A DNA stretch of 64,000 bases from Amoebophrya sp. A120 (taxonomy: Eukaryota; Protista; Dinoflagellata): assembly GCA_905178155.1 (NCBI GenBank), contig CAJINV010000010.1, positions 3,882,599-3,946,598 of the forward strand, written 5' to 3'. The notes under the pieces were generated by a model. It did not search any database and had not been told where the DNA came from. It saw nothing but the letters and a program-made list of their open reading frames with translations. Below, piece by piece: positions 4,615 through 64,000 of the stretch. How positions within the stretch are numbered: the stretch's first letter is position 1; every line of letters begins with the position of its first letter. A program made the translations under genes and the position numbers.

Positions 4615-6742
4615 ATGAAATCTCAGGTTGTCTCCATCGCCGTGGGCACGCTTTTCAGCCTAATGTGGTACAGCTGTCATCCGGAGGGTGTCATGAACGC
4701 GGAAACGTTGAAGAAAAAGCTCGCGTCCGACCCCTTTCTCGCCGAATCCTCGATGGCCTCCACGTATGAACTGCAAAAGTATCGCACTCGTAGTAATTGC
4801 TATTGCAGTCCTGCATTACAAATCTCCTTCCTGAGACAAATCCGCATTACAAATTCCATTTCTCATGCTGGACAAATTTGTGATGCAATTTATAAAATAA
4901 CAATAGAGAATTTTTGGTCGGATTTTTCTGCCTTATAGATTATAGGGGCTCCCTTAGAAAATGATTAGTAGGGAGATCACTTTCTAGATGATTCCCTTAA
5001 ATGAGCTTTTAGACGAAGCTCCTAAGGGAAGCTTCTAAGGGAACACGGGTAACAAAAAAACTGGCACTGTGGGGAACAAAAATCCTGCATGCCGTGTGGG
5101 GACCAAAAATCCTGGCGTTGCAACTTGCAACGCCAGCCGCCCAGGCGTTGTTAACAGCCCTCGCGGCCTGCGCTGCAAGTTGCGGCCCGCGGTGGAGGCG
5201 TTGCAACGTCCGGAAGCTTGCATGCCAGAAAAAGGCTAAGGGGCGCGCGTCCCAGAATAAACAAAACCCAGCGGACTTTACCGCGGGCCAACTGGCTCAA
5301 GGAAATGAATCGAAAAAAAAACGCCGGGCCGGTTTTTAGCAGGCCTATTCTGGCCACCCCCAAACCCCGACCCCGCTTGGGGGGTAGGGGGGGGCGATGA
5401 CATCCGGCAAAACGAAAAGTAGGGGAGCGCCCCTTGCGAAGCTTAAGGCAAACACCACCCAAAGGGCACAAGCGCAACGCCCCGGGGATATATCTGGGGA
5501 TATATCTGGGGATATGTCTGGGGATATATCTGGGGATATATCTGGGGATATATCTGGGGATATATCTGGGGATATATCTGGGGATATATCTGGGGATATA
5601 TCTGGGGATATATCTGGGGATATGTCTGGGGATATATCTGGGGATATATCTGGGGATGTATCTGGGGGGATATCTGGGAAGGTATCTGGGGATATCTCTG
5701 GGGGGGTATCTGGGAAGGTGTCTGGGGATATGTCTGGGGAGATATCTGGGGAGATCTCGGGGGGGGGGGTCTGGGGATAGGTCTGGGGCAGCGCTGTGCT
5801 TTTTGGTCATGTTTATATTTCGGCCGCGTAGGTTACAGCAGGGCCGTCCGTGGAAAATGACTAGCAGGGGGCGCGCTTCTAGAAGTTGTCGCCAGGAGTC
5901 CCACCTAGAAAGCTGCAGCGAAGACGCGCTGAAGAAAAGGACTGGCATTGCGGGGGCCGTCCTCGCGGGCGGGAAATAGCACAACAGTGGAGCTCCTCTT
6001 GGCTCCGAATCCGATTTCTTTTCCTTATAGATTAGAGGGCGCTCCATAGGGGCTGAGTAGTACGTAGGGGAGGCCGTTCTAGGAGTTTTTTTGTGGTAGC
6101 GGCCCCACCGGGCGGGCTTCTTTAGAATGAAGGGGCCGGCGAAACGGCAGGGGGTGCGCTGCGGGTGGTCCTGTCTAGAAATGAGACACCGCACACGAGG
6201 GCAATCAGGCCAAGGCCCGCGGCCGGGTGGGGGCGAGCTAGCTAGGGGCTGAGCTCAGGGAACGAAAGCGAGCGCGCCCTCCAATGTGGGCCGCTACTAG
6301 GGAGGGGCGTTGCTAGCAACCGCGGGCCCGGTTTGCCATGCTAAAACCGCCCGCCGGGTTTCTAATACATAGTGGCCGCGTTTGCGCTAGGTAGCAGATC
6401 CTCAATGGCGAGACTCTTTCGACTAGCCTGCACCCCCATGCTCGCTAAGTTTTTTCCTGGGTGTTTACATTTAGACTTACTAGACGACCTATCGCCGGCG
6501 TCCTGGACGCCGGCGTAGTAGTCTAGTACTAGTACGATGCTTTTGCAAAGCATACCACGCAAGACCACATGGACGCAAAGAACGCCGGGGCGGGGCAGAA
6601 TGGCCTGGCCGCAAACAGTGTGTCCCCAACCAGCGCAGCGGCGTCCGCGGCCGCCGCACCAACAGCAGGAGGAAGTCCAGCGGCAGGTACTACGACGGGT
6701 GTAGCTGCAGGAGGCGCTCCGCCGGCCACGGGGCTGTCGTAA
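4615..6742 (+). CDS. small putative secreted/membrane protein with Ala/Gly-rich tail
   Basis: MKSQVVSIAVGTLFSLMW...SMAST|QDHMDAKNAGAG...ATGLS* is in frame after removing element 4765-6554 and one CCACG repeat. Confidence 0.6.
4893..6526 (+). mobile_element. non-autonomous Helitron-like insertion
   Basis: Inserted between A and T of the host introner without a TSD; 3' hairpin CGCCGGCGTCC-T-GGACGCCGGCG (6493-6515) then CTAG (6523-6526); 5' end is TA rather than TC. Confidence 0.55.
5484..5787. repeat. 12-bp tandem repeat (GGGGATATATCT)n, about 25 copies, degenerating 3'
   Basis: Directly visible; explains the GDIS/GIYL/PRYI repeat ORFs. Confidence 0.95.
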
Positions 6743-7618
6743 GACCAAGATTATGGGATTCCTGCGTTGTAGCTTCTTATCCTCGTAATATTCGAAATCT
6801 AATACTTGATGTGAGTAGGATAAAACGACCTGACGCATCAAAATTAACTTTGCTTACTTGTTGGTCTGTTTTATATTTCGAGGCCCACAATTACAGAAAG
6901 AGAAATTCAAATTTGCACTCCAAGTCAAGTGTATTGAAAGCAGGTAGAATGTTTTCTGTACCGACCTTCAACAGCAAAAGAACCCAATGTCGTGCAAGAA
7001 CTCTTTTGTACTGGAGCATTTTTTAAGCAGATTTGTTACAAGAGAAGTCTAGTATGCCACCGGCGAAGTGCACGCGGCACTGCCTACAACCGCATTGATA
7101 GAAGTGCACGAAGAAAAACACTTCTTGTACGGACAGACGCAGCAATCGCAACGCCACTACCTCGTTTCCCTCTTAACAAGGTTTGCTCAAATATTAAAGT
7201 GGTGCTTTTTTTGTGCCCGGCACGATTATGTGCCCCTCTGAAGATTTCGCTTCTGGTGTTGGCTTTTTTCACGACCTTCGTCATTCGTAGAGTTGCATTC
7301 GGCAGTCCAGTGCGACACAGAGCGACTGAGGGAAGCAGATGTGGGCTTTTTTGTGACGTCGAGAGAGAAGGATATGCACGCGCCCTGCCTGCGTCGTCGG
7401 TATCGAAAAGATGAGAGGATCATGTCGAAGCCATGTAACTACTATTCTTGCCGTAACTTGAAATGGTCGAGTTCCCGTTAGTCGCTGATAATGTAAGTGA
7501 AGCTCCAGATGAATCTTCTGGATTGCAGAGGTGGTCGAAACTGCAGCTGATCTTCCTTTGCGCACTGTTACTACTGTATGTAAGTACAGAAAGAGGGCAT
7601 AACTATTCGAAAAGAAAA

Positions 7619-8913
7619 ATGGACCTCCACGTGCTGCAGGGCCTGGAGCAGGCGTCCTCCTCCTCCCTTGACAAAACTCTGAAGGAAGAAAAAGCCCGAC
7701 GAAAAGACAAGGAATTCCGCGAATTTCTGGTGCATTCCGGTGCGGCGGACTCTCTCCTGAAACTCGTCATTTCCCTTCGCGAGCACGAGGCGTTCACAAG
7801 TGAGAAGTTTCCGCTGTCGACCGAGGAAAAGACCGGGATTTTGAAACTTTTGTTCGACTTCTACGGATCCCAGCCAGATCCGATATGGGACGAGATCGAT
7901 TTTTTGAGAAAATCGAACACCGCCATGGGACAGGATCTGGTGACGTTGGGGAAAAGTATAAAATGAGACATAAAAGTTTAGCTGGTTGTAGTGGTTTGGT
8001 AAAACAAAAACGACTTTTGTCTTTAATACTATGAGAGTCCTCGCAGGAATACACTTGAAGTACTTTATTAGATTCACGCGGTTCATCTGTGTTGCGCAAA
8101 CACACAACTAGGTATCACCAGTGTTGAGCAGGACATTGCAGTAGTGCAAAGACGAGCTTTCGCGGTCCGGGCATGGAAATTCATCTCCAACCTCGAGGGG
8201 ACGGATGAAAGGACATTAGATATCCTGAGTAAAAACATACCCACACCAGAGTCAGGATGGGGATTTTGCAACACAAACCTAGGAGTTTTGTGAGTCACGC
8301 ATGACAAGTTGCACTATGCAGTAGTGCAGGTTAGCAAGTGCAGCCGCATCACAGATTCATCTGCTCATCCTGTTCACAGCATCACAAATTCCAAAACACA
8401 ATTGGAAATGGCTCTCATGGGGATGCGCGTTACAAGTCTTCCTGTCTTTGCAAATCTGCATTACAACTCTGGCGTGGGTACGTTTTTGCTCAGGATATTA
8501 GAAGAGGGCCAGACGCTGCAGAAACGAGACGCGATAAGCGGTAATTACAATTAGGGCTACTTATACTTTGTCATGCAGATTTGAACATAATGATAGTCCT
8601 TACACACTGCAGTTCAGCATGACAAACCGAATCCGAATTCATCATATACCAAACCGAAGGTAAAGAGTTTCTCACCCGTCTCATCGGCGCCTACAAGAAG
8701 CTCCCACACCCGTCGCTGGTCGAGCTGCCGTCGATAGAGAAGAAGAAATTTGTCAACCGAGGGGATGTGGACGACCGAATGGCGCTGGTGTTCATCCCGG
8801 AGGCCTTGGGATTGACGGAGGACAACTCGGCTGGGCCGTTGTATCCGGAACCGGACGAGGAGTGTTTCGCGAAAATCGCGGAAGTGCTGGCTGCGCTGCA
8901 GGTGGAGGAGTGA
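7619..8913 (+). CDS. MYCBP/AMY-1-like domain protein (multi-exon)
   Basis: KDKEFREFLVHSGAADSLLKLVISLRE resembles the MYCBP helix motif; further exons near 8112-8220, 8503-8540 and about 8615-8913 (...IAEVLAALQVEE*). Confidence 0.5.
8221..8497. mobile_element. introner family E (TATCCTGAGTAAAAAC TIR)
   Basis: TIRs plus TTAGA direct repeat; near-identical copy at 53790-54068. Confidence 0.9.
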
Positions 8914-9684: not shown

Positions 9685-12591
9685 ATGTCCGACTGCAAAC
9701 CGGAACTGATCCGGCAACTCCAGCTTCTCGCGAACGACCACAAGACGCGCAACGACACCTTTCGCGTCCGGGCCTACAACAAGGTGTTACAGTCACTGAA
9801 AGATTCCAACGCGGTCGGGGCGATCAAGACGGAAAAGGATCTCGACAATGTTCCGGGGTTGAGCAAAACCGGGTCGATCCGGCAGCGGATGGTGACGATT
9901 ATCAAAAATTTCTCCGCCGCATCATCAAAGGCTACCAGTGCTTCTACCTCTTTATCCCCTGCTTCAACAAACAAACGAAAGCGCAGCGACAGTGTGGACA
10001 GCAATAGTATTAAACAAGCGAACAGCCAGCAAGGAAATAGTAGTAGCGCAGGAGCGGGAAGTAGTCAGAAGATAAACAGCCAGGATCTGGACCTTCCAGA
10101 AGTGAAAAAGATCAAAGAGTCCAAGGAGTCGCAGATTCTCCAACAGTATACATTGCAAAACTGTCTGGGTCTGGAAGGATGCAAAGTTTGTCATGCTTGT
10201 CTGACATAACTGAAGAGTTTGTGATGCATGTCCAAGAAGAGCAAGAGACCCTCTTGCTTGTAATGCAAAAACGCAGTTTTTTATGCGGAAACCGCAACAC
10301 TCAGGCGCGCAAATATTTTTCGTGCTTGGCTGTGCAGCAATGCAGCGCATTCACTATTCCCAGCGCAGCATTACAAGTTTCCAGACTCAGACAACATATT
10401 TGCATTTGATCAACAGCTGCAGAAGATCCATGGATTCGGCGGCGTCCGGGCGCAGCAGCTCGTGAACAGTTACAAGGTAAGAAGTCTGGCCGACTTGCTG
10501 AAATTGCCCGACAATGTTCTAACCCGGACGGAGAAAATTGGCGTGGAATACTACGACGATATCAACGCAGACATCCCGCGACAAGAGACCGAGCAGCACG
10601 TTGTGTTTCTGAAAAAACAAGTGGAGAAATTGAGTGCCGTGTTGAAGAAGGATAGTACCAGCACTAACAGTAAAAGTAGCCAAATTATATTAAATGATCT
10701 CCAATTTTCCTGCGAAGTGACCGGCTCCTTCCGGCGGGGGGAAAAGAAAAACGGCGATATCGATCTAGTTTTGACTATGAAAAACCACAAAACCACTCTC
10801 GAACCGAAGAAGGTTTTCCAGGGATTTTTAGCCTTGTTGGCAGAAACCGGGTATTTGACGGAAACTTTGTATGAAAGCGTCAGAATCGAAATCACCAAAA
10901 TCGAAATAGTTTGTGATGCATAAAATCGATGCCACTTGGGGCCTCAGTTTCCAAGTGGAGCATGACAAATTTCGGGAGCGCCAAAATCCAGTCTGTCATG
11001 CTGTTTGGGCAAATAAGACCGCTCCTGTCATGCTACTCTGGCAATTCATTTTTAGGGCTAAACAGGCTTGCAATCGGTCATATTTGCCTCCTCTCCAACA
11101 CTGGCCTTCTGTGCCCTACATTTTACGCATTACAAATATTTTGATTTTGTCGATTTCGATCCTGACACTCCCATACTTTGGCTTCGTCGGTGGAATTGGA
11201 GAATTACGGAAATAGTTCGTATTCACCGGCTATCAAATGCAAAAATGTCTGGGTCTGGAAGATTGCCAGGTTTGTGATGCATATTTTGCATAACCCATGA
11301 TGCCTGTAATGCATGAACTAACATCACAGGTTCTTAAGGGTCCTTCTGATGCGTATTCCGCATGAGACATGCCCACTCCGCGCAGCACAAACTGAACCCC
11401 TCTTGCTGGTCATGCAATACAGATTTTCTTTACCTTCCAAAGACAGCATCACAAGTTGCAACCTTCCAGACCCAGACATTTTTGCATTTGATACCGGCGG
11501 GGAAAAACAATAACAAGGGTAGTATAAAAATAAAAGCCGGTCGCTCGTCAACTTCATCCTCGTCCTCTTTGAATAATAAACCCTCGTCGACGTCGTCGAC
11601 CCCGAGCCTAACTTTTTCCCCTTCCAGCAGACTACACGGAGCTGCAATACAAAAGGTTAATTCTGATTCCTCTACAAGTTCCAACAACTGGTCGTTGAAA
11701 TGGACTATCAAATGCAAATATGTCTGGGTCTGGAAGAATGCAAGTTTGTCATGCTTGTCTGGCGTGACTCATAAATCTGTAATGCATGAGCAGGAAAATG
11801 GCCTCTTTCCTGTCACACAAAAACGCAGTTTGCCATGCGGAAAACGAAACACAGTAGTAGCTTAAAAATTTGTCATGCTTGGCTGCGTATTGCAGTCCGC
11901 CCACCAGTCACATTTTAGCATCACAACTTTCCAGACCCAGGCACTTTTGCATTTGATATGGATGGGTCTGGCGAAACTTTTTCTCCACGACAACGACAAG
12001 CTCAACAAGCACCGGAGATTGGACATTCTGTTCGTCCCTTCGGAAATTTACCCCTTCACGCTGGTCTATGAGAGTTGATAACTCTCCCTTCCCCTCATTT
12101 GTATTGCATGAACAGCAATACAACCGTTGGCAAGAGTGCGGGTTTTCCATGACAAATTCACCCAGGACTCTAGTGCTGGTTGATCTTTCTGCCAGAACCT
12201 GTCATGCAAAAGGTGCCAAGAGGCAAATAGTGGATTTGGTATTTTGCATGACAAATGAGAGGGAGGGGTTGTGCACTGTCATATGGTCCATTTCACGGGC
12301 AATGCGCTGTTCAACATCGATCTGAGGAACCACGCGCTAAACTGCGGCTACAGTTTGTCCGAGCACGGTTTCCGGTACGTAAAGAAGGAAAGCAGTGCGA
12401 GTCAAGCTGCGCTGAACAAGAAAACACCCTCGAATCAGTACTCGAACCAATTTGTTTCCGAGCTGGACATTTCGAAAAAACTGAACAAGAAGAAATTCGA
12501 GACCGAGGCGGACGTGTTTCGCTTTTTGGGCTTGAAATACATCAACCCGGGGGACAGGAAACATGGAGTGTTAGGGAAGCATCGACTCTAG
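9685..12591 (+). CDS. DNA polymerase family X (pol beta-like), 6 exons
   Basis: After removing 5 introners: FRVRAYNK (lyase domain), LQKIHGFGGVRAQQL (HhH), GSFRRGEKKNGDIDLV, KWMG, HRRLDI, LVHFTGNALFNIDLRNHAL, EADVFRFLGLKYINPGDR. Confidence 0.92.
10147..10410. mobile_element. introner family A (TATCAAATGCAAAAATGTCTGGGTCTGGAA-type TIR)
   Basis: TIRs; CAACAG direct repeat; removal restores the polX frame. Confidence 0.88.
10870..11175. mobile_element. introner family B (TATGGAAGCGTCAGGATCGAAATCGAC-type TIR)
   Basis: About 55-bp TIRs; CTTTG direct repeat. Confidence 0.9.
11231..11493. mobile_element. introner family A
   Basis: Perfect about 31-bp TIR; CCGGC direct repeat. Confidence 0.92.
11706..11958. 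mobile_element. introner family A
   Basis: TIRs; TGGAC/TGGAT flanks; restores KWMG. Confidence 0.9.
12067..12283. mobile_element. introner family C (TATGACAGTGCACAAC TIR)
   Basis: TIRs; TGGTC direct repeat. Confidence 0.9.
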
Positions 12592-13450: not shown

Positions 13451-16400
13451 ATGAGCATGAGGCTGAAATCCACCACGAGCTCTTCAGCAGCTCATCCGCG
13501 CACGAAGACCTCCGCTGTCACGGCGCTGCTCTGCTATCTTTGCGAGCATGACTTGTTCCTCGGAACGGACGCGGTGGAGGTGCTGGTGACCAAGAAAAAT
13601 CACAAGAAAGCGACCGTCGTGAAGAAAATGCCTGCTGATGATGAATGTTGATGGCGATGTCGTGAAAACGCCCTCGTCCTCCGCGCTCGAACGCAAGGAG
13701 GAAAATGTTAAAGCAGGGAAGAATGAACAAGATCTTAAAAACAACAACGCTCCTCTCATCTTCGACACGGCGGGCCGGTACAATGCCACTGCTTCAACTA
13801 CACCTGGAGATGAGAATCATGGCTCTGGGCATCCGCATCAAGAGCATGAAGATGACCTCGGAAGCTCCGGGTCGTTTGTCCAGCAAGGCTATTTTGTCCC
13901 GCTGGGCTCGGAACGCTTTGCGGCAATATGAAAGTGCACGAGTCGACGACGTCCCTCTCTCTCGTTTCTTGTCATGCAGAATTCCGAATCCTAATCCATT
14001 CCTACCTGGGCACTAGCTTTGGCTGTGTTTGCATGACACTTACTGTAATAAGCCCAAACTGTATGCAAGAAAAAAACTGTGTAAGTGTAAGTCTGTGATG
14101 CAGAAAATGCAAAACAGTTACGCTTGTCATGCTCTACATGCATGATAGGCTCGCTTCCTACGTGTTTTCCCGTCCTATCTGCGCATGACAAGTTTTTCCT
14201 GTCATGGCAGACGAACTTGTGATGCTGTTTTCCCAAAAGACCTACACTAACACAGTTTTTTTCTTGGATAAACTGCACTGCTTTCCTGGACTACTAGGTT
14301 TGTCGCACAAAAGCCTCACTTTGCATATGGCCCCCTCAAAACGTAAGTTCTCAACTCGTAAGTGCGCTACCCATATTTTTTGCAAACCCGCTGCCCCATT
14401 TTTTTTATTTGTGAGGAGCAGTAGGGCCCGACGCACGTTGACCCGAGCGCGGCAAGCTTACGAAGAACATGCGCTGGACCGCAGCGGCGGGAAGCTTGCA
14501 CTGCCATGCTTCGCCGCAACATCTAAAGACGGCCACTGGGCCGGGCATAACGTCACGCGCGAGGGTATGGAGCACATGGGAAATCATCAAAAAGCTGCGG
14601 GCGCTTGATGCCTTCGCACATCCTCCCGGCCGGTCGCAGGGCGCGCGCCACAGCCTTCAGACATGACTTATTTTGCGCCCGTCATCTCTGACACCATCAG
14701 GCAGGTTTCGCCGCGATTCTCTTGCGCCGCCCCGCCCTCCGTCAGCCTATCCTCTTGCGCCGTCCTCCGCCCACCCCAGGGGGGGGTCGGTCCGTCAGCC
14801 TGGGGCGCCCCTCTCCCATTCTTCAGTGCCCCGGTCCGCCCGGCGTCTTTTTTCTTGCATCGGCACCCCGGCCCACCCCCGCTCGTTGCTTCCTCTCGAA
14901 AATACCGGCACAGGCTGGGCCGCCCGCATGCGCATCGCGGCCCGGGCGCAACCGGCCCGGCGAAAATGCGCGTGAGGCTTGCCGCCACCCAGTCGGGACG
15001 ATGGCCGCCCCAATGCTGCCCGGGCCTTTCCTGGACTACTAGGTTTGTCGCACAAAAGCCTCACTTTGCAGGCTGTTTGTGATGCTTCTAGACATGCCAT
15101 ACAAACGAGGGCGGGAGGCGGAGGGACTTGTGCACTCGCATATTAGAACGGTAACAGCTGCGGCGGTGGTGCCGGATGTGGGGATCAAAAGGACTCGGAA
15201 CAAGGTATGGCGTTCTCAAATGTTACATTCTCAGCTGTTGCATGTATTTGTCATGCAAAATGAGCACCAACGTCCACACAGTGAAGCTGCCTCGCATGAC
15301 AAATTTTGGAAGGGCTAAACAGCACTGGAATCCGTGCCGAATTTGTAATGTAAGAGTTGCAAGATCCGGTCTTTCCCTGTTGCCATTCTTGCATCACCAA
15401 TTCATGTAACAATAGAGAATGTAACACTTGAGAACGCCATGCAAGGAGCCGCACCTGCCCCTGCGGGCGGAGAAGGCGGGGCCGGAGGTTCCTTTGCCCC
15501 CCTGGCAGTGTCGAGCGAAGGTGTGGCATATCCCGCGGAAAAACGTACTCACCCTAGAGTTATCATGGAAATCTAGTGCATGTTGCGCAGGTGCAAATGG
15601 GTACTACATGTTTATACAATATAAGTAAATGTCTCTTCATGCGGAGGCCTATGAGGAGTATGATTCGCTATGATAAGTATAAAGGAATTTGTCCTGCTCG
15701 AGTCTTCAGCGCACGAGAGTGACGCGGCTGCACTAGACTGAATTGGGACTACAGTTATCAGACGCTGAGTTGTCATGCGGGACCACCTAAGCTTCTGTGT
15801 TTGTCTAGCAGATTTCTATTTTGGCCGTGGGGTGAACGCATTTTCACTCAGGATACGCGGGCAGAAAGAATCATGCGCGTTTATGATGGCGATTGCCATG
15901 CCGTCGACGGCCGTTACTACGCCAAACCGAACGGATAAGATACGATAGTAAAGCGGGGAAGGATGAACAAGATCTTAAAAACAACAACGCTCCTCTCATC
16001 TTCGACACGGCGGGCCGGTACAATGCCACTGCTTCAACTACACCTGGAGATCATGAAGATCATGATTCTGGGCAGCAGCAGCAGGAAGATGAAATCGGCT
16101 CCGGTTCGTTTGTCCAGCAACGCTATTTTGTCCCGCTGGGTTCGGAACGCTTTGCGTCAATATGAAAGTGCACGAGTCGACGACGCCCGTCTCTCTCGTT
16201 TCTTGTTATGCAGAATTCCGAATCCTATTCCTAATCCATTCCTACCTGGGCACTAACACTAAGTAGCTTCGGCCGTGTTTTCATGACGCTTACGGTATTA
16301 AGCTCAAACTGCACTGCTGTCCTGGCCTACTAGGTTTGTCGCACAAAGAAAAGCCTCACAACTCTGCAGGCTGTTTGTGATGCTAGACATGCAATACAAA

Positions 16401-23085: not shown

Positions 23086-23105
23086 TGAAATTTTGTTCAC
23101 TCGCT

Positions 23106-28436: not shown

Positions 28437-28536
28437 GTAAGTACTTCCGAGCCCCCTGTAGTCATGATGCGTGTTATAATCGACGACGTCGTGTACCTGT
28501 AGGGTTAAACTTAATCTTAATATGTAAAGATCTCCG

Positions 28537-51261: not shown

Positions 51262-54200
51262 ATGCCAGCGGCAGACGACAACTTTTTGCACTTTGCGAAA
51301 TTGGCCGGCGGCGGCGAGGTACAACTAGTGCAGGTAGAGGAGACGCTGCTGCCGCCGGAAGAGGACGCTGCACTGCCTCTCAAGGATGTATCGTATCCGA
51401 AATTCAAGTATCCTGTGCAAAAGTATCGTACTCGTACTAATTGCAAATGTGCACGACAAATATTTTTCCCAAGGTAAAACAGCATTACAAATTCCACTTT
51501 TCTTCTTGCCAAAATTTGTGATGCAATTTATACTTTGTGCGATACTTTTGCAATGCATATCAAGGAGCTGCTGCAGGAGATCTGCACCACCCCGGACGAC
51601 CACATCACGCTCCCGAAAGCGACGCTGGAGATCGAACTTCCGCGCGTTCCGGCAGAGTTTGTGTTGTGCGTGCCGAAAGGGCCCACATTGCAGCGATGCG
51701 CACCATACATGGTCGAAAACGCCACCTACATGGCTTTAACCTGCGCCAGAGGATACGACGAGCGCAACAACTACAAGCCGGGGAAAATAAACGGGGAGAA
51801 TGTGAAAGGTAGCTTGAAACATTTGTTCTAGAAGTCCTGTGTGCGTGCATGCCGTCGTCTTCTCTGGCGGGTGATGTTTTCAGTTGAGTGCTTTTCATAA
51901 AGAGAACGAGCACAAAGCCCAACAGTGTTTTTACTTGTCGTGGCAATCACAAAATTGATAAATGAAAACTACAGCCTCTTCTCCGCAGTCCTACCTTTTG
52001 CTAGACGAGGATACGCTGGACAGAACGAAGCAGCTTGCATTGCTGTTCCTGCATTGCTGCAACAGTGGGCGAGCCGACCGCCACCTCCTGTTCGTCCACA
52101 AAGCGAATTCCATCGAGAAGGCGAAAAAGGATCTGAATTTTCTAAGTGGGCATGATGATCCGAAGCCCGATGAAGATGAATTCAAAAACGGGGGCGAAGA
52201 CGTTATTATGGCTGACGCTGAGGAGGAACAACAACAAGACGACGGGGAGAACATCAAGAACAATTCGGACGACCTGCTCGGCAGGTCCACGTCGCGCCTG
52301 AATGTCGCAACCTTCGAGCAGGCGATTTTGTTGGAGGAAAAGCGGAGAGAACGGCGGAGGAGGGAAAGCAAATCGAAGAAGAGGACCGACTCCAAAAAGA
52401 GCACGAAAAGCACGGCCGCCACTGGTGGCGTCGAGACAGAAAACGAGACTCAGGACGTAGGAGATACAACGCAACTGGTATTTATTCAAGTTTCAGTATC
52501 TTCTTCAAGCTGTTTTATCCCATGAAACTGATGTATGGTTTTGTGTCTTTCGTAGATAGAGCAAGAGGTAGTGGTACTTTATTATGTAGTGATATTAACA
52601 GTCGACGCTTCATCGGCTCCCAGCACCAAAGCGCAGGGAACTATTTTGATACGCGTAGATTGATAGCTTTACCTTTCCTTGACATGATGGCTTTGTGAAT
52701 AGAATTTTGAAAATCGCTCTAATCATCAGGATCCTGTCGCAGCGGAAGATGAGCACGAAAAACCGGACCAGAAAAGTTCCGATGCACTAGTGCAAGTAGA
52801 ACAGGACAAGAACCAGAAAGAGGAGGAACAGCAGTTTTTCGACCTGCAGGACCAAGTCGAAAAAGCTAATGTGCTCATCGTTGAGTACGGTCAACTTGGC
52901 GCGAATTCCGCCGAATCCAGTGTCTTGCTGCTCCGGAAGTGGTTGAATATCAATTGTAAAAATGTCTGGGTCTGGAAGAATTCATGGCTGTCATGCTTGT
53001 CTGGCATGACTCTTAAATCTGTCATGCACGTTACCCAAGAGCTCCGTTTTTCTGTGATGCAGAAGCGCAGTTTGTCATGCAGAATAGGCAACACCTAGGA
53101 GCTCAGAAACTTGTCACGCTGAGCCAGCATTTGTAGCCTCATCATGAGACGCCGCCCAGCGTCACAAGTTTCCAGACCCAGACATTTTTACTTTTGATAT
53201 TGAAGGGTGGTAATACTAGGAGTTCCGGCACGGGCATCGTTTGTTTCGACGACGCGCACTGCATTCGGAACTGCAACTTCCTAAGAATTGCAAACACGTC
53301 TGGGTCTGGAACCTTGCAACTTTAGCTTGTAATGCTAGAAGAAGGTGGTCTAGCTGGCCACAGAAGAATTTGTGCTGCATGAAGTAGAACAGCATATAGC
53401 ATCTGTGAAAATTTTTGTAACGTTAATGTATGAGAATGATTATCTCGTGCGGGACGGGCATGGCGAAGCATGATTTTCAAAACCTGTAGTAATGCTTTGT
53501 CTTCCATCCCATAAAGCGCAAGCGGCATGAAGCAAATGGACTTCTGCATTTTTCCGAACCCCGACATTATGTTTGCACTGGATACTTCGTCAACGGCGAC
53601 CACATGTTCGACGATCTGGAAGAGGATCAAAACAGCACCCAGAATGCAGAACAAGACGATAATGGAGGCGTAGGTGAAAACGAAAATGAAAATCCGGACC
53701 AACCCGGCCTTCTCGGGCAACAAGGACAGCAGGAGCAGGAGGTGGAAGACGCGCAGGAGAGGAATGAAGCCATTCTGCGGAGTCGCCCGTATCCTGAGTA
53801 AAAACGTACCCACACCAGAGTCAGGATGGGGATTTTGCAACACAAACCTAGGAGTTTTGTGAGTCACGCATGACAAGTTGCGCTCTGTAGTGTAGTGCAG
53901 GTTAGCAAGTGCAGCCGCATCACAGATTCATCTGCTCATCCTGTTCACAGCATCACAAATTCCAAAACACGATTGGAAATGGCTCTCATGCGGATGCGCA
54001 TTACAAGTCTTCCTGTCTTTGCAAATCTGCATTACAACTCTGGTGTGGGTACGTTTTTACTCAGGATATTTTTTTCTACTTGTTGTCTGCGTTCTAGTGA
54101 TGTACTTTTCTGAATGTGTATCCACGGAAAAAACTGTGTTAGTGTAACTTTCCTTGGCTGACAGCATCACAAATTTGCTCTACACAACAGAGACAACCTG

Positions 54201-54848
54201 TCATGCGTGGCTTGCAAGGGAAAACACTCGTGAAAAGAGGACTTCGTGGTTGTGCGGCATGACAGGTGTACCTCTGTTGCATGTTCTGCATTACAGAGTT
54301 ACACTTACACAGTTTTTTTCTTGCATAGTGTGTGGATATGATGACGGCGTCCCAGTCTTGGGATATCAACAAAAGCTTTTTTGCTGGCCTTGCGGTTTTG
54401 TCAAAAGGTGGAGCCCTGGGGTTGCCGGGACGGAGTGTTCGTGGCCAAGAACGCGTTTCAAGCGCTCGCCGACCGCGAGGAGTTTCTGGCGAAGAATTTC
54501 AAAACCGTGAGAAAAAACGTCAACGCAGAGGGCGATGATCAGGAAGAGGGCGAGGATGCTGACAACGAGGAAGATGCTGATGGCGCCAACAACAACAACA
54601 TGGAGCGCGTGAAAGTGAGTCGACTCCCCGGGTTCCGTCTGCGGGATAAGCTTGTAAAAAAAAGAATAGAAGATCCGAAGGGGTACTATGAGTTGGTTAA
54701 GCAATTCACCAACCAGTCCGTCCAAAAGGAGAAGGAAAGAATGCGAAAGGAGGAACAAGCCCCGGCGGGGGCCGAAGAAGAAGTACTAGATGGTAACGAG
54801 AATCGAATAGCTTCGCCCGCTGGGTGTGAAATCGCAAACTTGCGCTAG
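51262..54848 (+). CDS. hypothetical acidic multi-exon protein (3' structure uncertain)
   Basis: Coding-like exons joined across introners 51409-51559 (TCAAG), 52948-53199 (TTGAA) and 53282-53584; further introners at 53790-54068 and 54119-54327 plus GT-AG introns; frame not resolved near 54070-54350. Confidence 0.55.
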
Positions 54849-56636: not shown

Positions 56637-59600
56637 ATGCGCGGTCGAACTCGACCCCCCAATTTCTTGTACACGGGACGCCACGGCTATGGAAGCGTCA
56701 GGTTTGAAATCGTCAGAGTTGAAATAGTTTGTCATGCACAAAGTGCAGCCCTCAAGGTGCCTGCCTTGCAGAGTATGCAAGTGAGGTATATTGTAAGCCG
56801 GTTGTGGGGTAGAAACTGAGCTGCTGAAATAGCATGACAGAACGCGTCTTTCTTACCCAAACAGCATGACAGACTGGATTGCGGCTCTGCCCAAATTGGT
56901 CATGCGCCACTTGGAAACTGGGTCACAACTTTCATCCATTTTATGCATGACAAAGTACTTCAATTTTGTCGATTTCAACTCTGAGACATCCATAACGGCT
57001 CGGCCGAAGACTCGCGAATGCAATCGTATAATTTTGCGGCGCAAGGATGCGGACGGGAAATTAGAGCCGCCTTCGATTATGATGATGAAGTTGTTACGCT
57101 CTTCAGGATGTTTAATGATCGCCGCCCCGCCGGCAGAGGAAACATGTTGAGGGGCTCAATCCGAGGAACACTCTCCAACAACCATGAAAATAGGTTGTGT
57201 CCGGAGTGTAGGTTGAACTTGTTTTACCTGAAGAGCTCAATCACGTCTGGACATGAGTTTGAAGCTGTCCGCCATGGACAGTCGTAACGTATTTCTTCTT
57301 GCGGTAGCACTACTGACTGTACAGGCACGGAGGGCGTAACAATACGACACTGCATACACGAATTCTGCCGACTCCACCGCGGACTTCCGATCGAATGTTT
57401 TGAATGCGCAAAACACTTACCCAATTCAAGTTTTCGGGAAGCCGTGCAGAAGGAGGTTGGATTTCGGCTGTTATCATCCTCTATGGTGTTGCTTTCGTCA
57501 CGCGGATAGAAATTTGTAATGCATAAATCAGAAACATCGACCACATGCTGTACTACAGTTTGTATTTTTCGGGCAACCTTTGACATATTCTCGGCTGATG
57601 TCTTCCGTGCACAGTCTCGCAGTTCGATGTAGCTCATGGAATGCTTCAACTTGTCGCGGGTAGGCTTTGATCAGTGCGAGCCATCGCTTCGCACAGAGAA
57701 AAAGTCCCTCTATTGAGCAGACCGCTGGAACGAAACTCACTGCATAAACACGATGCGACGCATGCCTGTTTGCATCGCGAAAAGATGTGAAACTCCCGGG
57801 AAACACGTTGGAGGGGAAGTACAAAATGCGTATCGCTACGGAAGGAGAAGTGGAAGAGGAGGTGGAGTACTGCCAAGAAGTGCCGACTCCGACTGGCACG
57901 CGGCCGCTTTTTACCCCATGTCCTGAAGGTTGCGGATTCGGTCTGCTGGAGGGTGAGACCTCCGGCATGTGTTGCAGTGGACGGGGGATATTTATCGAGG
58001 GAAAAAATCTTCCTTCTCCTTATCGAAACGAAGTTTCTGGGGTACGATTTTCGCACACGAATCGGATTCGTCCGGCTGAAGAGGATGACAGGTGTATACG
58101 ACGCCTGACTTGAGGAGTTTTAGGCTGGACTTTTTTGGATATGCACATCAATGTCATGAGTCGCGACTTTGGCGATATACAGAGGTGGGATTTTTTCCTA
58201 ACGATAATTTCGGTAAAGCGGTGGCACCGATGGTACACGGAGAGTGGATCACTTCATCGTGCCCGACAGGCGCGATGGTATGAGCTTTAGCAAATGTAAA
58301 AATGTTTCCGTTTAGAAAACCGCCGCAACAGATTTTATGCTCGGAGGTCATCTTCACACCGCAATACGTTGCGTGAACGGGAAAAAGGGTAAGTACTAAT
58401 GATGTACCGAAGAGGGGCGGTAGACATGCAGGATCGGCATCTTGTAGGTCTTACAGAATGTCGTAGGGCAGGACACTCATAACATACAGCATGAGACATG
58501 GAAAATTGGCATTGCAAGTTTCCGAATCTTTCTGAAGCGGACACTTTTACAGTCCAGAAGCTTCTTCGACGCGCAGAGGACCACGAAGTAACGTACAAAT
58601 TTCCGATCATGCGGAAACTGAATCGAGACAGTCGACTGACAGTACGGCTGGGAAACATGAAGAAGGTGCACTGGGACGAATCAAATGTAACCCTCAAAGG
58701 ACGATATGCGGATGTAATCCGCTACTGGGACGAATTAACGATAGAAAATGTTGTCACCTCGACACGAAGAACGACTTTGCCTGCAGCGGACATAGGACAC
58801 GGAGGACTATGCAGAGTAAAAAAGTATGCAGTTAGGAGTTGTGGCGACCCATAAGTCACCTCCGAGGTGCTGCGGTGCATTTTCTGGTGATGGGCATTTT
58901 ATATGATTTGCATCGACAATGGTAAAAAAAGCGTGTATGTGATCCGTGTTTGATTGGGGTGACTATTTCGGTTTATAGGCGCGTCACCCTTTATACTGCC
59001 ACTGGATCCAGACAGAGGCGGAGGAGGATGTCGTAATGCAGGACAATCAAGAAAGGGAGAGTCGAGCTGCTGCACAACGTCGCGACTACGCGGCAATCAA
59101 AAAAAGCTTCATCGAATTTTTGGTGGAAGCGTCGCCCGTGTATAAGGCTATTTACGACGCACTCACTAACTCCGGGTTCGCGCCGGGCGAAGTACAGTGC
59201 GTAACCGTGAAGACCGAGAGAAACACACCGAGTGTGACTGCAGTCCTAGTAAACCGAGGCGATCTCGTGGACTCCGGAATTTATATTCGGAGTCGTCCGC
59301 CCCGCGCAGCAGCTGAGGAAGCCAGCGATGACAGCGATTCCGAGTCAGAAGAGGTGTCACCTCCGGAACCACAGGCGGAAGACGATTACTTACCGATGGA
59401 CGTCGAAGGCGAACAGGAATACTCGAGTTCTTTTTTCGACGCGTTTCGGAGTGAGGATTCGGACACCCTGGAAGATCCGAGTGACTTCGACGCGGAGGAC
59501 GAATCGTCAACAGAAGAACTGTCTGATGCAGGTGAAGAGGGACACGATCTTCCCCCCCAAATGGACTGGAAACATCAGCACAACGCGCTCCAATATTCTT

Positions 59601-62600
59601 CTGTGGTATGTCAGTGTAATTGTTAAACTTGTTGCTGGAAGGTAGAAAAGGAAAGAAAAAACATTTTGCGTAGTACTGAATGGAGGCGGAAGATGAGCGT
59701 AGGTTTGCGTGATCGAGGTTTTTTCGATTTGCACCGCATGAGTATCTCCTTCTAGTTTCAGCATCGAATTTTTCGCATAAATGCATTACTTGTTGATTTG
59801 CCTGCCATACCCGTATGATGCAATCAGCTATCCACTACTTTTCCCCTTCGGCGTATGGGAGTGTCCAGAACGAAATCGTCAAAATCGAAAGTAAAATTTG
59901 GCTGTTTTTGGCGGAGGCAGTCCGGGGCACGCTTATCGTGGCCTCTTTGCGATTCGGACACACGTCAGCATACCGTCGCGGCTTTGTCAAAAAGGTCTCA
60001 GTGTGTCAGAATCGAAATGCAGATCTCGGCACCTTGCCATGGGGCCCTTGGATTTTCTTTTGATGGAGCGAATTTCGATCTTGACATCTGCATACGGAGG
60101 TGGATATGCCTTGCATGGTCGATAAGGAAGTGGTTACATCGGGATAGACCAAGACGGGGACTCGACCACTACGATAAGCCCTCTAGTTTGCTTGGAGTCC
60201 GGAATTGGGGGCGCTAGGATTGACAAATTTTGAGAACATCAGAATTCGCGTCCACATCCTCCCACTCGGGTGCGCTATTGTTAGTACAACAAATTTGGTG
60301 CTTCACCTTTACCGGTCGACATTCAGTTTTACTTGTATAGTCCATAAAATCGGCGTGTCGGGTCTTACGTTATCGACTTGGTCGATTTCGAATTTGGAAC
60401 TTCCATAATCGACGAATCGATGAGTCGCCGCAGGTATCAAATGTAAAAATATCTGGCTCTGGAAAAATGCAGCGCGTCACGCTAAAGTTGGAGGAGACGA
60501 AAACGTGTGTTGCGTGATTACCAAAAGTCGTACTGTTTTGACTAAGGTGGGAGTGAGTTTCTCTTGTATGATGGGCGTCGGAATGATCGTGCCGAATCTG
60601 CCAAGCTCGGTCTTGCCCTCGAGACCGTAGGGGTCATGGAAAAGCTGCATGACAAATCGAGCATTCTTCTCGTCTAAGACACTTTTACATTCGATCGCGG
60701 GAGGAAATCGATGACGCCGCCGCTGCTGGTAGTGCTCGGGTGAAAAGTGCACAAATTACACGATCTAGCTTCGTTGTGCAGTCGGCGGAACTTCCGCACT
60801 GGCGAGAGGTCGAAGCTCTATGCGAAGAGTATTACATTGCGCAGTATCTGGCAATATCAAACGTAAAACTGTCAGGGTCTGGAAAGTTGGAACTTGTAAT
60901 GCTGGTCTTGCATTCCTGTGGAAACTGTATTGCATGACCAAGAACAGTTGTAGCCTCTTCTGTCATACAAAAACGCAGTTTGTCATGCGGAGTTCGTATG
61001 AGAAAGCGTGCTGCAACCTTGTAATGCTTTCCTGCATAAGCAAGAGGCTTCCTCTTGCACATTTTAGCATCACAAATTCCCAGACCCAGACATTTTTTGC
61101 AATGCACAGGCAAGGGAAAACGACGGCGCGGCGTTCATGAGTCGGAACGGGATTTCGGATCCGGACAAACCTCGAATGTTGCCGAGAGACCACCTGGGGT
61201 CCGCAGCTTACGTCCGAGAAATGCGGTCGCTATGGATTGCAAAAAGGTCTGGGTCCGGAAAAATGAAACTGGTGCCGCTTTTGGTGAAGTCTAAAAAATC
61301 TGTATTGCATGAGTCGGAGGATGTTTCCAGTTTTTGCCGTTCGGAGGAGGTATCTGTCATTCGTGATAGACATCAAGATATCCGCAAAAAATATGCCAAG
61401 CGAAGTCATGGATTACAGGAATGTTAGACTCTACGAAATATGCATGACAAACCTGGAAATCTACAGACGCAGACCTTTTTACACTCGGTAGTCCCGGGCT
61501 CGGAACTATCTCCGCAACTAAAGTGTCCGTGTCATGGCCAGCACACAGGAACCGACGCGCTTGCATCTTTTTTGGCTGTGCCTTGTTCGGACGCAAAGCA
61601 TTCGAATGCGACGCTTCAGACTGCGCCGCGAGAATATGATCATGATACGGGGACACTTTTGGGAAGGAGATAATTTTACAGCGTTCGAAGGGGCCGGCGA
61701 CGGACTTCTATCGTCAAGAAAAATCCCTCCCCTGATATCAGAACGGAATACCTTGCGCATGATATATCGTACACGAATCAGCTTCGTTCGGCCGAGCGAC
61801 CGCGGGGCGAGATCCCTCGGGCCCTTGTTTAGACTGAACTGCATGCGAAACTAAAATCACGACGGGGGGGCTTTTTCTACTCTAATCGGCCTGGAAGACG
61901 AATGCGATCTGCTGTCTCCAATCAAAAATGCAAAATTTGGAAAACATACCTCTTCGATATGGGTAGGAGGGGATTTTTCCATATGATAGACTCATCACGA
62001 TGACTACCAATCTGCGGTTTATCATTTAAAAAAACTTTCCTGCTCCGTCTATTTGGTGGCGTCCTTGTCACAAATTCTGTGCCATGCATGACACTACAAA
62101 GTAGACGCGGAAGAGTCATTTTCCGAGAATATCGGGGCGGGAGATCCGGCAGATGGGAGGGCGCGGGTATTCGTCGGATTCAACGAATACTCGCGCCTTT
62201 CGTTGGCGATAGGGGGGGAGAAAGCAACGGCTGAAATCGTCGACCTTGGAAACTTCTGCATTGCAAAAGAAAAAAACAGCATATAGCAGCCGGACGAAAT
62301 ATATCCTACTTCGTGGCATTGGCATTGGAATAAAACTAATGAAGGTTCAACTTGGACTCGTTTTGTCGGTTTCGGAGGCTCGGTCTAACCGGGACACAAT
62401 TTTTGTATGATTTAATTTTTCGACCGGCACGATTTCGACGTTGACATGACCATAGAACGCTGCGGCAATTCCTAGCCGACCTAAAAAAAGGAGTTTACGG
62501 AATATGAAGGTCTCAGGTGTTTCGCTTCTCGACGGTCTGGTGCAGGTGTCACGTAAAAGTCTTACGTTTATCCCAACTCAGTTTACACATCTATCTTGCA

Positions 62601-64000
62601 AGGCTACCACGCTCTAGTGAAGGACTGGACTGGTTCGTAGGACTGACGTATTTACTGTAGTCACTTTCTGCATTTTCCTGGATTTTATCGGGATGTTCTT
62701 ACACCTTGGAGTCATAAGTTCGCTCTATCCTAGTTGTCCAAGATCGTGCAGCACGCGAGAGCGAACACTTGAAATTACCATAGAGGCGGTGCGTCTGGTA
62801 CGCGTTGGCGGTTTATCACATGTGAAAACGTCAGGACCTGGAAGAAACCAATCTTGTGATGCGCATGTCGGAATTCGGAAAATTCACTCATGCATAGGCA
62901 GTAAGTGTTTCCCTGTTATGTCACCTAAGTCACGAATTTGTCATGCTGAGTCGACACTCCCGACGTTTTTCGAAACCTGTAATGCTGGAGTTTTCATGCC
63001 AGACCTTCGGCTTCGTGCAGAAATAGCCCGACTCTTCCAGGCTCCGAAATTTTTACACTGGAGACTGTCGAGTGGCAGTTTCGGGGGCTGCCGCCTATGG
63101 ATGCGTCAGAGTTGAAATCGTTGAAGTTGAGACAATGTTTTACGCATACAATGCATGTTCGTCGAAACATCGGTTTGAAGTCGACCATTACAAACTTAGA
63201 TAGTCTCTAAATCCGGTCGGTCACGTTGTTTAGGCAGGGAGAAGTGCTGTTTCTCTCTTAGTTTAGCAACTCGAGCTGTAGCTCCAAACAGGCCTACAGT
63301 CGACTTCACTTTTTTATTCTGCGACGCACATAAACTAAGTAGTGCATTTTATGTATTAGAAACGATCTCAATTTTGACGATGTCAACTCAGACCCTCTCA
63401 TACCGTACGTGCACATCGTATGTCGGCGAACGCCGCTCTGGGAGACGCCGACCGACATGGATAAATTTTTGACGACGCAAAACTACTCCACGTCAATGAC
63501 AAATCTCCACATGAAACAGTATGCAGGTGGTAGGATCGAATTGCTTAAAATTGAAAAGAGTTGAAAAATAAAAGCTTGATTTTGTCGATGGGTGCTGGGT
63601 GCTGCATGTATGTCCGACACCGCGGACGAAGCGGCAGGGAGGGCGATTTGGACCGAGTTTCTTTTTTCAAAATCCGCAAACTCGATCTACCACGTACCAT
63701 ACGCGCGTCTGTCGACGGAACATTTGTGGGCGAGATGAGGGCGATCCGGCGGGGAGGCGCTGTAAGAAGAATATGAACGTCTCCGATCGGAAATCTTCAG
63801 GGTACGAAATAGTTTGTAATGCAAAACAGCGAACTCACCTACGACACTCCTTCTAGTCGGCGCACGATGAACTTCCCCGGTACGGAAAACGTTTTGGTCA
63901 TGCTAGTTAGGCGTGGGAGCGGCATTTTGCCATCGGCTCAGCCGTCTAACTCGTAATCCGTAGAAGGATAGTAATCGGCTTTCATGGTGTTGTCTGCAGT
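56637..64000 (+). CDS. Helitron Rep(/helicase) protein, HUH endonuclease region (Helitron_like_N), 3'-truncated by window end
   Basis: Spliced: CPEGCGFGLLEGETSGMCCSGRG; YDAISYPLLFPFG; EEYYIAQYLARE; MLPRDHLGSAAYVREM; DFITMTTNLRWREI; RAFRWRLRQFLADLKKGVYG; AVEWQFRGLPHVHIV; TPTDMDKFL. Exons before 57787 are less certain. Confidence 0.85.
56688..56994. mobile_element. introner family B
   Basis: TIRs; ACGGC direct repeat. Confidence 0.88.
57993..63722. mobile_element. series of about 18 mostly diverged introners inside the Helitron gene
   Basis: 57993-58206, 58288-58558, 58705-58853, 58902-58995, 59607-59809, 59854-60094, 60123-60407, 60435-60696, 60855-61108, 61231-61490, 61507-61672, 61709-61988, 62020-62131, 62210-62454, 62503-62782, 62814-63064, 63096-63402, 63484-63722. 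Confidence 0.75.

What the first reader, a model, noticed from the sequence alone, without database searches (positions are those of the whole stretch)
4765..63722. Massive multi-family TAT...ATA introner system: transposon-like elements acting as non-GT-AG introns
Seen: about 55-60 elements of at least 8 unrelated TIR families. Nearly all begin TAT and end ATA and carry 5-bp flanking direct repeats of arbitrary sequence. Removing the element plus one repeat restores conserved ORFs (polX, TRAPPC1, BTB-SPRY), while normal GT-AG introns coexist in several of the genes. Known: inverted-repeat introners are described in Amoebophrya, but to my knowledge their excision mechanism is unresolved. Inference: a second, structure-guided splicing (or DNA-excision) pathway.
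Basis: partly seen in the sequence, partly recalled or inferred. Interest (0 to 1): 0.8.

Follow-up and report, generated by a model that had tools for sequence, protein, structure and literature searches.

The report
Amoebophrya hairpin introners with fixed cut
About 60 small transposon-like inserts split genes of a likely Amoebophrya parasite, stay in the DNA and are missing from transcripts without using GT-AG sites; this class was described in 2021, and what is added here is a likely fixed cut position that erases each insertion exactly.

Summary
The window has 61 TAT...ATA inverted-repeat elements plus one TTA...TAA element. 30 of 61 have a perfect 5-bp flanking repeat and 46 have at most one mismatch. 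The groups share one end consensus and an internal motif, so they are not unrelated. The ends (TAT, 7 nt, AAA) match the Amoebophrya A120 introner elements of Farhat et al. 2021, so the system is already known.

Transcript-like contigs skip element length + 5 nt at 11 of 11 listed element joints, none placeable as GT-AG. DNA-like contigs keep the elements, which argues against bulk DNA excision.

The addition is the cut position. Mismatched flanks put the cut after repeat base 3 or 4 in RNA. Three orthologue comparisons in a related assembly favour base 4, giving an intron N-TAT...ATA-NNNN. Removal is exact even where the repeat has decayed (AAAAA/CTCAG), so the position is set from the element ends. 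The 2021 paper called these sites variable.

The machinery is untested: a modified U2-type spliceosome is slightly favoured over a Euglena-like separate system. No transposase was found.

The parts
4765..6554 (.). TAT element group B, 1790 bp with internal 12-bp tandem repeat; perfect 5-bp repeat
   Evidence: no Pfam hit for two internal ORFs
8221..8497 (.). group D; perfect repeat; 96% identical to 53790
9685..12591 (+). host gene polX, 525 aa after removing 5 elements
10147..10411 (.). group A, ends TAT/ATC; perfect repeat; in polX
10870..11175 (.). group C; perfect repeat; in polX
11231..11493 (.). group A; perfect repeat; in polX
11706..11958 (.). group A; repeat mismatch at base 5; in polX
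12067..12283 (.). group E; perfect repeat; in polX
13927..15142 (.). group H, repeat decayed, holds nested element 14062 and a 45-bp-repeat-flanked insert
14062..14270 (.). group F, nested; paralogous empty site has one copy of the 5-mer
15206..15441 (.). singleton, ends TAT/ATG; paralogous empty site
15529..15855 (.). group I, repeat decayed
16161..16432 (.). group H, repeat decayed
16578..19804 (.). group I, interrupted by the TTA element
16784..19681 (.). TTA...TAA element, 2.9 kb, long internal foldback, perfect 5-bp repeat; paralogous empty site
19885..20187 (.). group C; perfect repeat; paralogous empty site
21795..23085 (+). host gene TRAPPC1/Sybindin-like, 189 aa after removing 3 elements
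22102..22340 (.). group F; perfect repeat
22406..22663 (.). group A; perfect repeat
22761..22969 (.). group F; perfect repeat
23106..23367 (.). group A with a 6-bp repeat, downstream of the TRAPPC1-like stop codon
24860..24995 (.). group B; perfect repeat; in 418-aa ORF
25102..25413 (.). group G; mismatch base 1; in 418-aa ORF
27537..27798 (.). group A; perfect repeat
31395..34032 (+). host gene, 324 aa, 5 elements and 1 GT-AG intron
31482..31814 (.). group C, ends TAT/ATG; perfect repeat
32394..32720 (.). group G; removed in transcript contigs (217-nt exon bookkeeping)
32773..33024 (.). singleton; removed in transcript contigs (bookkeeping)
33066..33342 (.). group A; removed in transcript contigs (bookkeeping)
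33481..33806 (.). group G; removed in transcript contigs (bookkeeping)
35739..41173 (+). host gene, 925 aa, 8 elements and 1 GT-AG intron
37114..37407 (.). singleton; mismatch base 1; RNA pieces end at 37109 (left base used)
37563..37903 (.). group G; perfect repeat
38017..38308 (.). singleton; mismatch base 5; one low-depth RNA-run contig retains it
38364..38773 (.). singleton; RNA joint 38358>38774 (415 = L+5); base 5 from right copy
39925..40204 (.). group D; RNA joint 39919>40205 (285)
40267..40421 (.). group B; removed (100-nt bookkeeping)
40446..40681 (.). group E; removed (bookkeeping); base 3 from left copy
40708..41135 (.). singleton; flanks AAAAA/CTCAG; RNA joint 40705>41139 (433 = L+5); cut after base 3 or 4
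42620..45962 (+). host gene BTB(-SPRY), 381 aa, 8 elements and 3 GT-AG introns, all 11 joints in one contig per RNA-like run
42687..42827 (.). group B; RNA joint 146
42860..43142 (.). group A; RNA joint 288; base 3 from left; an in-frame GT..AG option is not used
43180..43328 (.). group B; RNA joint 154
43497..43646 (.). group B; RNA joint 155
44255..44500 (.). group E; RNA joint 251; base 3 from left
44534..44763 (.). singleton, ends TAA/ACA, flanks TGAAA/GGGAA; RNA joint 235 = L+5
44839..45127 (.). group D; RNA joint 294
45590..45809 (.). group E; RNA joint 225; base 1 from left
51409..51559 (.). group B; perfect repeat
52948..53199 (.). group A; perfect repeat
53282..53584 (.). group A, ends TAA/ATA; mismatch base 5
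53790..54068 (.). group D, 24/24 TIR, no repeat; preceding G plus TAT is a predicted GT donor of intron 53789-54355
   Evidence: not covered by RNA
54119..54327 (.). group F; mismatch base 1; inside that predicted intron
56688..56994 (.). group C; perfect repeat
57993..58206 (.). decayed singleton
58287..58557 (.). decayed singleton, ends uncertain
59854..60094 (.). group C, decayed
60123..60407 (.). decayed singleton
60435..60696 (.). group A, decayed
60855..61108 (.). group A, ends TAT/ACA; perfect repeat
61231..61490 (.). group A, decayed
61507..61672 (.). decayed singleton, no repeat
61709..61988 (.). decayed singleton
62503..62782 (.). decayed singleton
62814..63064 (.). decayed singleton
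63096..63402 (.). group C, decayed
63520..63701 (.). decayed singleton

Best explanation
These are Amoebophrya A120-type introner elements: likely non-autonomous DNA transposons that duplicated 5 bp on insertion, stay in the DNA and are missing from transcripts as element + 5 nt, likely cut 1 nt before TAT and 4 nt after ATA by what is probably a modified U2-type spliceosome positioned by a predicted terminal hairpin. Shown: 5-bp duplication (4 empty/filled pairs), retention in DNA-like contigs, exact L+5 removal in RNA-like contigs, cut after repeat base 3 or 4, no need for an intact repeat or for GT-AG. Inferred: the cut after base 4 (orthologue residues), mobilisation by one transposase lineage in trans (shared ends and subterminal motif; enzyme not found), hairpin guidance, and the spliceosome as catalyst. 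With this cut the intron begins N-U-A-U-(C/G), keeping U+2 and A+3 of the local GUA donors. Because the ends are symmetric and exactly one duplication length leaves, an insertion in either orientation would be silent at protein level.
For: Empty/filled pairs at 14062, 15206, 16784 and 19885. 11 of 11 listed element joints equal L+5, and 6 more fit by exon bookkeeping. None of the 11 can be placed as GT..AG; 2 can be read AT..AC; at 42860 an in-frame GT..AG option is passed over. DNA-like runs X1 and X8 have depth 0 on these joints and contigs through the elements. Mismatch mapping: bases 1-3 come from the left copy at 37114, 40446, 40708, 42860, 44255, 44534 and 45590; base 5 from the right copy at 38364 and 40708. 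Base 4: in 3 of 3 non-synonymous base-4 mismatches tested (L056, L062, L073) the A120-named protein has the left-copy residue; for the Rab GTPase L056 that column is A in 85 and D in 1 of 99 homologues matched by the pattern, out of 120. No AG or G bias in 52 oriented flanks. Terminal pairing predicted in 16 of 18, against end-to-end pairing <=0.11 in 5 of 6 canonical introns. For the spliceosome: the 7 correctly placed canonical introns begin GTA; a predicted hybrid G|TATCC...AG intron gives a 619-aa ORF; PMC7789003 reports U2, U4, U5, U6 and nearly all spliceosomal proteins, no U1 snRNA, and IR/DR in 15% of A120 canonical introns; Fritillaria precedent.
Against: No lariat, circle or protein evidence. 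G+1 and the 3' AG, which the canonical spliceosome reads (established knowledge), are absent. The test for a sequence-fixed 5' end was inconclusive: of 11 end variants in related loci, 5 altered the 5' TAT, with uncertain strand calls and unknown splicing. 2 of 18 removed elements (42860, 44534) have weak predicted terminal pairing. Base 4 rests on 3 evolutionary comparisons in another assembly without RNA; 5 of 9 base-4 mismatches look synonymous and 1 is of unclear frame, which would also fit a cut that wobbles between bases 3|4 and 4|5. All RNA support is contigs from two samples of one study, labelled RNA only by guess; the one raw-read run gave 1 read. Both joint tables were cut (885 and 3 rows not shown). 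No transposase hit in 31 ORFs or exons.
Confidence: 0.55

Rival explanations
1. Same RNA-level fixed cut, but by a separate non-spliceosomal or strongly remodelled cut-and-join machine that measures from the hairpin, as proposed for euglenid nonconventional introns (N3-CAG...CTG-N5).
For: Same geometry: a short conserved paired triplet with fixed unequal spacers, free junction bases. Euglena spacers and triplet tested genetically (PMC12501133 passages); excised euglenid introns are circles without lariats (review passage). U1 snRNA not found in Amoebophrya.
Against: The intron start keeps U+2/A+3 of local donors; one predicted hybrid element-donor/AG intron; most spliceosome parts are present. 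No candidate enzyme was looked for or found.
Confidence: 0.33
2. Programmed precise DNA excision in a somatic or stage-specific nucleus, like ciliate internal eliminated sequences, so transcripts come from element-free DNA.
For: Transposon-like ends and exact loss of element plus one duplication; only contigs were seen, which drop rare variants, and life stages are unknown.
Against: X1 contigs 37803-39959, 40447-42819 and 43623-44909 run through elements with 0 differences at depth 22-30, like unique DNA; X1 and X8 have depth 0 on all listed element joints; low-depth contigs of the RNA-like runs retain element sequence. The joint takes bases from both flank copies in a fixed pattern even with no repeat left.
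Confidence: 0.06
3. The joints are reverse-transcriptase jumps across strong hairpins at short repeats, and the genes are broken or spliced elsewhere.
For: Stable predicted hairpins with flanking repeats are the usual substrate for such artefacts (recalled); no direct-RNA data here.
Against: Exact L+5 at 40708 and 44534 where the repeat is gone and at 2 weak hairpins; ORFs need the removal (29 of 31); the Rab residues across the L056 junction are continuous in other species; one contig per run carries all 11 joints of the BTB gene at higher depth than retained pieces.
Confidence: 0.04

Closest known systems
Amoebophrya sp. A120 introner elements (Farhat et al. 2021, PMC7789003)
   Same: IR starts TAT, 7 variable nt, then AAA; 3-5-nt direct repeats over the boundary (5 bp in the Fig. 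S19 legend); about 240-nt mean length; many families; RNA-seq-supported non-canonical introns mixed with GT-AG introns; hairpin proposed; no transposase in A120. Genes in the related loci match A120-named proteins at 94-100% over exons.
   Different: That paper calls the splice sites variable relative to the hairpin and the border unknown (Fig. 3 legend) and reports no family relationship; here the removal is always L+5 with one likely cut, and the groups share a subterminal motif. Its figures were not visible, so Figs S19-S25 may already show part of this.
A120 introner families in Gozashti et al. 2025 (PMC12130899)
   Same: 58 A120 families; the rows seen are mostly TIR DNA elements with mixed, mostly non-canonical annotated splice sites; family 38 has TIRs and ORFs like Copia/Gypsy, a possible mobiliser.
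   Different: Automated TSD calls of 2-5 bp and annotation-derived splice sites; no fixed cut rule in the passages and the one supplement part read.
Euglenid nonconventional introns (PMC12501133; review PMC11282704)
   Same: Works like them: paired terminal triplet, fixed unequal spacers, free junction bases, MITE-like origin proposed, coexistence with GT-AG introns.
   Different: Different triplet (CAG/CTG versus TAT/ATA) and spacers (3+5 versus a likely 1+4); unrelated lineage; circles shown there, untested here.
Fritillaria borealis non-canonical introns (abstract PMC13326754; review PMC11282704)
   Same: TIR/TSD transposon-derived introns outside the GT-AG rule, handled by a modified U2 spliceosome.
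   Different: They keep preferred dinucleotides (AG-AC, AG-AT) and U1; here the junction bases appear free and U1 snRNA was not found in the genus.
Micromonas and Aureococcus introners
   Same: MITE-like TIR elements with TSDs acting as introns.
   Different: They carry or co-opt canonical GT/GC and AG sites; these do not.

Membership tests
Amoebophrya A120 introner elements | IR begins TAT + 7 variable nt + AAA | tested here: met
   122 ends: T 0.96, A 0.96, T 0.95 at 1-3; A 0.66-0.84 at 11-15 versus text
Amoebophrya A120 introner elements | 3-5-nt direct repeat over the exon/intron boundary | tested here: met
   30 of 61 perfect 5-bp, 46 with <=1 mismatch
Amoebophrya A120 introner elements | removed from transcripts at non-GT-AG sites | tested here: met
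   11 of 11 listed joints
Amoebophrya A120 introner elements | repeated, in families | tested here: met
   9 multi-copy groups in the window; 40 of 62 have 70-95% matches in related loci; depth in X1 up to 90,000 against about 30 (not a copy number)
Amoebophrya A120 introner elements | host is Amoebophrya A120 or a close relative | tested here: inconclusive
   indirect only: related loci with the same elements encode proteins near-identical to A120-named ones; no window gene was searched for named orthologues
Non-autonomous TIR DNA transposon (MITE-like) | fixed-length target-site duplication shown by empty sites | tested here: met
   4 of 4 paralogous pairs; 100 of 136 repeat-blind calls
Non-autonomous TIR DNA transposon (MITE-like) | cognate autonomous element with transposase | tested here: inconclusive
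   no Pfam transposase hit in 31 window ORFs/exons; only one TAT element over 600 bp in the loci; no whole genome held
Canonical U2 (GT-AG) intron | GT/GC donor and AG acceptor | tested here: not met
   0 of 11 joints placeable as GT..AG or GC..AG; AG at bases 3-4 in 3 of 52
Spliceosomal intron of a modified spliceosome (Fritillaria-like) | lariat intermediate and snRNP dependence | not testable with these tools
   contigs only
Euglenid nonconventional intron | N3-CAG...CTG-N5 code | tested here: not met
   ends are TAT/ATA with spacers summing to 5
Euglenid nonconventional intron | terminal stem joining the ends | tested here: met
   predicted only, 16 of 18
Euglenid nonconventional intron | excised as lariat-free circle | not testable with these tools
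   none
Ciliate-type internal eliminated sequence | joined form present in somatic DNA | tested here: not met
   depth 0 on joints in X1 and X8; rare forms and other stages not excluded

The most novel reading that the evidence does not exclude
Amoebophrya A120 has a second splicing code, N-UAU(C/G)...(C/G)AUA-NNNN, read by a U1-free or non-spliceosomal ruler that cuts 1 nt before and 4 nt after a terminal hairpin and so removes exactly a transposon plus its 5-bp duplication in either orientation. One transposon lineage, marked by the shared TGT(C/G/A)ATGC subterminal motif, thereby became invisible to the proteome and spread into tens of thousands of exons, converging on the euglenid N3-CAG...CTG-N5 design.
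Probability: 0.35. Interest if true: 0.8.

Novelty: already known. Interest (0 to 1): 0.4.

Why it matters
How Amoebophrya removes more than 60% of its introns without GT-AG is an open question in the papers seen (PMC7789003 section 16; review PMC11282704). A fixed cut turns 'variable splice sites' into an exact rule. That allows correct re-annotation of tens of thousands of junctions, design of lariat and circle primers, minigene tests as done in Euglena, and a focused search for the machinery. It would also explain why these transposons are tolerated in exons in both orientations. The system itself is not new.

Tried and rejected
No whole genome is held, so genome-wide clustering and a transposase search were impossible. 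Pfam on 31 ORFs and exons, including those inside the long elements, gave no transposase. Rfam gave 0 hits in the window. The gene at 51262 and the region beyond 55 kb had little or no exon cover in the RNA-like runs, so the hybrid intron 53789-54355 and the base-4 mismatches at 59854 and 61231 could not be tested; lack of cover is not proof of silence. The idea that base 4 must match in both copies, suggested by the intact window genes, was dropped because base 4 was mismatched in 9 of 25 related elements. GT or AG enrichment in the repeat: none. 5'/3' asymmetry of end variants: inconclusive. The base-4 mismatches at 13927 and 16161 would be synonymous by hand reading, so uninformative. Of 128 loci from the metagenome scan, 75 gave no element call; L047 and L052 (other contigs, no repeat) were left out and fall outside the counts. 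Earlier findings: two look-ups, nothing returned.


Full report
What is in the window. A scan with no prior on the end sequence showed TAT as the one end triplet tied to a 5-bp flanking repeat outside tandem arrays. A strict scan found 26 TAT...ATA elements with a perfect repeat and TIR score of 15 or more; five order-3 Markov simulations gave none above 10. Relaxed scans, self-BLAST and hand reading raised the list to 61 TAT-type elements and one TTA-type element. Of the 61, 50 have both ends exact; 30 have a perfect repeat, 16 one mismatch and 15 more; the region beyond 56 kb is mostly decayed, 2 of 14 perfect. They form 9 multi-copy groups and 16 singletons at bit score 45, but 42 join at score 35. 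All share TAT-(C/G)-N6-AAAAA and an inward motif TGT(C/G/A)ATGC, 123 copies inside against 9 outside. One lineage is more likely than eight unrelated ones (inference).

They are insertions with a 5-bp target duplication. A local gene duplication gives four filled/empty pairs (14062, 15206, 16784, 19885), each empty site with one copy of the 5-mer; 14062 is nested in an older element. A metagenome scan with one group's end pattern returned 128 loci. A caller that ignores the repeat found 136 elements in 53 of them, 134 from one assembly, and 100 had a perfect 5-bp repeat against a 0.12% chance rate. Three genes in those loci match proteins named Amoebophrya sp. A120 by their source, at 94-100% over exons. 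The window's host is therefore likely A120 or a close relative; I did not test a window gene directly.

They behave as introns. Removing length+5 gives open frames of 525, 381, 925, 324, 189 and 418 aa; keeping any one element shortens the frame in 29 of 31 cases. Exon pieces hit polX domains, Sybindin (weak), BTB_2 and SPRY (weak). Contigs of runs X3, X4 and X6 are RNA by the tool's guess, and they skip GT-AG introns; they come from two samples of one study. They list 11 element joints, all exactly length+5: 415, 285, 433 and 146, 288, 154, 155, 251, 235, 294, 225. Six more fit by exon arithmetic, gaps of 217 and 100 nt. None of the 11 can be slid to GT..AG or GC..AG, two can be read AT..AC, and at 42860 an in-frame GT..AG option is ignored. 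The tables were cut, so minor alternative joints may be hidden.

Removal is not at DNA level in bulk. Runs X1 and X8 keep GT-AG introns and so look like DNA. They have depth 0 on every listed element joint and carry contigs through the elements; in X1 these have 0 differences and depth 22-30, like unique DNA. Contigs drop rare variants and the life stages are unknown.

The cut position. Where the two flank copies differ, the transcript shows which was kept. Bases 1-3 come from the left copy (37114, 40446, 40708, 42860, 44255, 44534, 45590) and base 5 from the right (38364, 40708), so the cut is after base 3 or 4. At 40708 (AAAAA/CTCAG) and 44534 (TGAAA/GGGAA, ends TAA/ACA) the repeat has decayed yet removal is still length+5, so the position is set from the element ends and not by homology. 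No covered window element differs at base 4. In the related loci 9 elements do: 5 look synonymous, 1 is of unclear frame and 3 change a residue. In all three the A120-named protein has the left-copy residue. For L056, a Rab5-like GTPase, the choice is A versus D at a column that is A in 85 and D in 1 of 99 pattern-matched homologues out of 120. The likely intron is N-TAT...ATA-NNNN. This step is evolutionary inference from another assembly without RNA, and the high synonymous share leaves room for wobble. Flank bases show no GT or AG bias in 52 oriented cases.

Mechanism. Folding predicts end-to-end pairing in 16 of 18 RNA-supported elements and little in 5 of 6 canonical introns; two removed elements pair poorly at the very end. 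With the likely cut the intron starts N-U-A, and the seven correctly placed canonical introns start GUA (the eighth start there was mistyped by 3 nt). At 53790 an element without a repeat supplies a predicted G|TAT donor for an AG-ended intron, giving a 619-aa frame against a stop at 464 otherwise; the model also needed a donor at 51802 chosen for frame and has no RNA cover. Together with the reported presence of U2, U4, U5 and U6 and absence of U1 snRNA and the Fritillaria precedent, this slightly favours a modified U2-type spliceosome held in place by the hairpin. The geometry is equally that of euglenid N3-CAG...CTG-N5 introns, which leave as circles, so a separate machine is a close rival. 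A test for a sequence-fixed 5' end was inconclusive. No transposase was found.

What is known. PMC7789003 (outline, passages, sections 11, 12 and 16, and part 2 of 5 of the supplement text; figures not visible) describes A120 introners with the same TAT+7+AAA ends, 3-5-nt repeats, 29,850 copies, 1,954 families, RNA-seq support, a hairpin model, and TTA ends for strain A25. [quoted passage not shown] PMC12130899 (passages, supplement search with files 13-14 not searched, part 15 of 33 of file 8) lists 58 A120 families and one with integrase-like ORFs. PMC12501133, PMC11282704 and PMC12787238 were seen as passages, PMC13326754 as abstract and outline; Henriet 2019, Roy 2023 and Guminska 2021 only as cited there. 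Four searches on Amoebophrya introns and one on euglenid introns showed no paper stating a fixed cut for Amoebophrya in what I read. Subscription papers, theses and the unseen figures S19-S25 may hold it.

Verdict. The likely fixed 1+4 cut, its independence from the repeat and the shared internal motif are modest additions that make the open splicing question directly testable. Interest 0.4.

Noticed in passing
window 14281-15070, 28537-30262, 48866-50608: Three 0.7-1.7 kb stretches flanked by perfect 45-, 55- and 59-bp direct repeats. The first is absent from the paralogous copy, so it is an insertion with a long duplication, a different element class. A partial third copy of the 59-mer lies at 46638-46689. 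No Pfam hit in their ORFs.
   Followed up: partly
window 16784-19681: A 2.9-kb TTAAGGG...CCCTAA element with 5-bp duplication and 570-bp internal foldback arms. Its ends fit the TTA-purine-purine motif reported for strain A25 introners, here nested inside a TAT element.
   Followed up: partly
window 23106-23367: The only element with a clean 6-bp repeat lies just past a stop codon, as expected if L+5 removal makes 6-bp insertions frameshifting in exons (n = 1).
   Followed up: no
window 53789-54355: A young element (96% identical to 8221) lacks its right repeat; G plus its TAT forms a predicted GT donor for an AG-ended intron that also holds element 54119. A possible route from introner to canonical intron.
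   Followed up: partly
window 5487-5780: A 12-bp tandem array inside the 1790-bp element at 4765.
   Followed up: no
window 56000-64000: A dense cluster of decayed elements with broken repeats and no exon cover in the RNA-like runs; probably a decayed, untranscribed region.
   Followed up: partly
window 13451-20819, 26984-28500, 31395-34032, 35739-41173: Co-oriented genes with similar hydrophobic N-termini and Cys-rich tails ending in GCC or CCGY; no Pfam hits for the ORFs scanned. The first has an early stop and is locally duplicated.
   Followed up: no
element interiors, e.g. 10147, 11706, 14062, 52948: The TGT(C/G/A)ATGC motif often recurs 31-33 bp apart, starting 33-45 nt from each end, like spaced protein-binding sites.
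   Followed up: partly
L024 347-1450: A 1.1-kb TAT...ATA element with perfect 5-bp repeat in the related assembly; not examined for ORFs.
   Followed up: no
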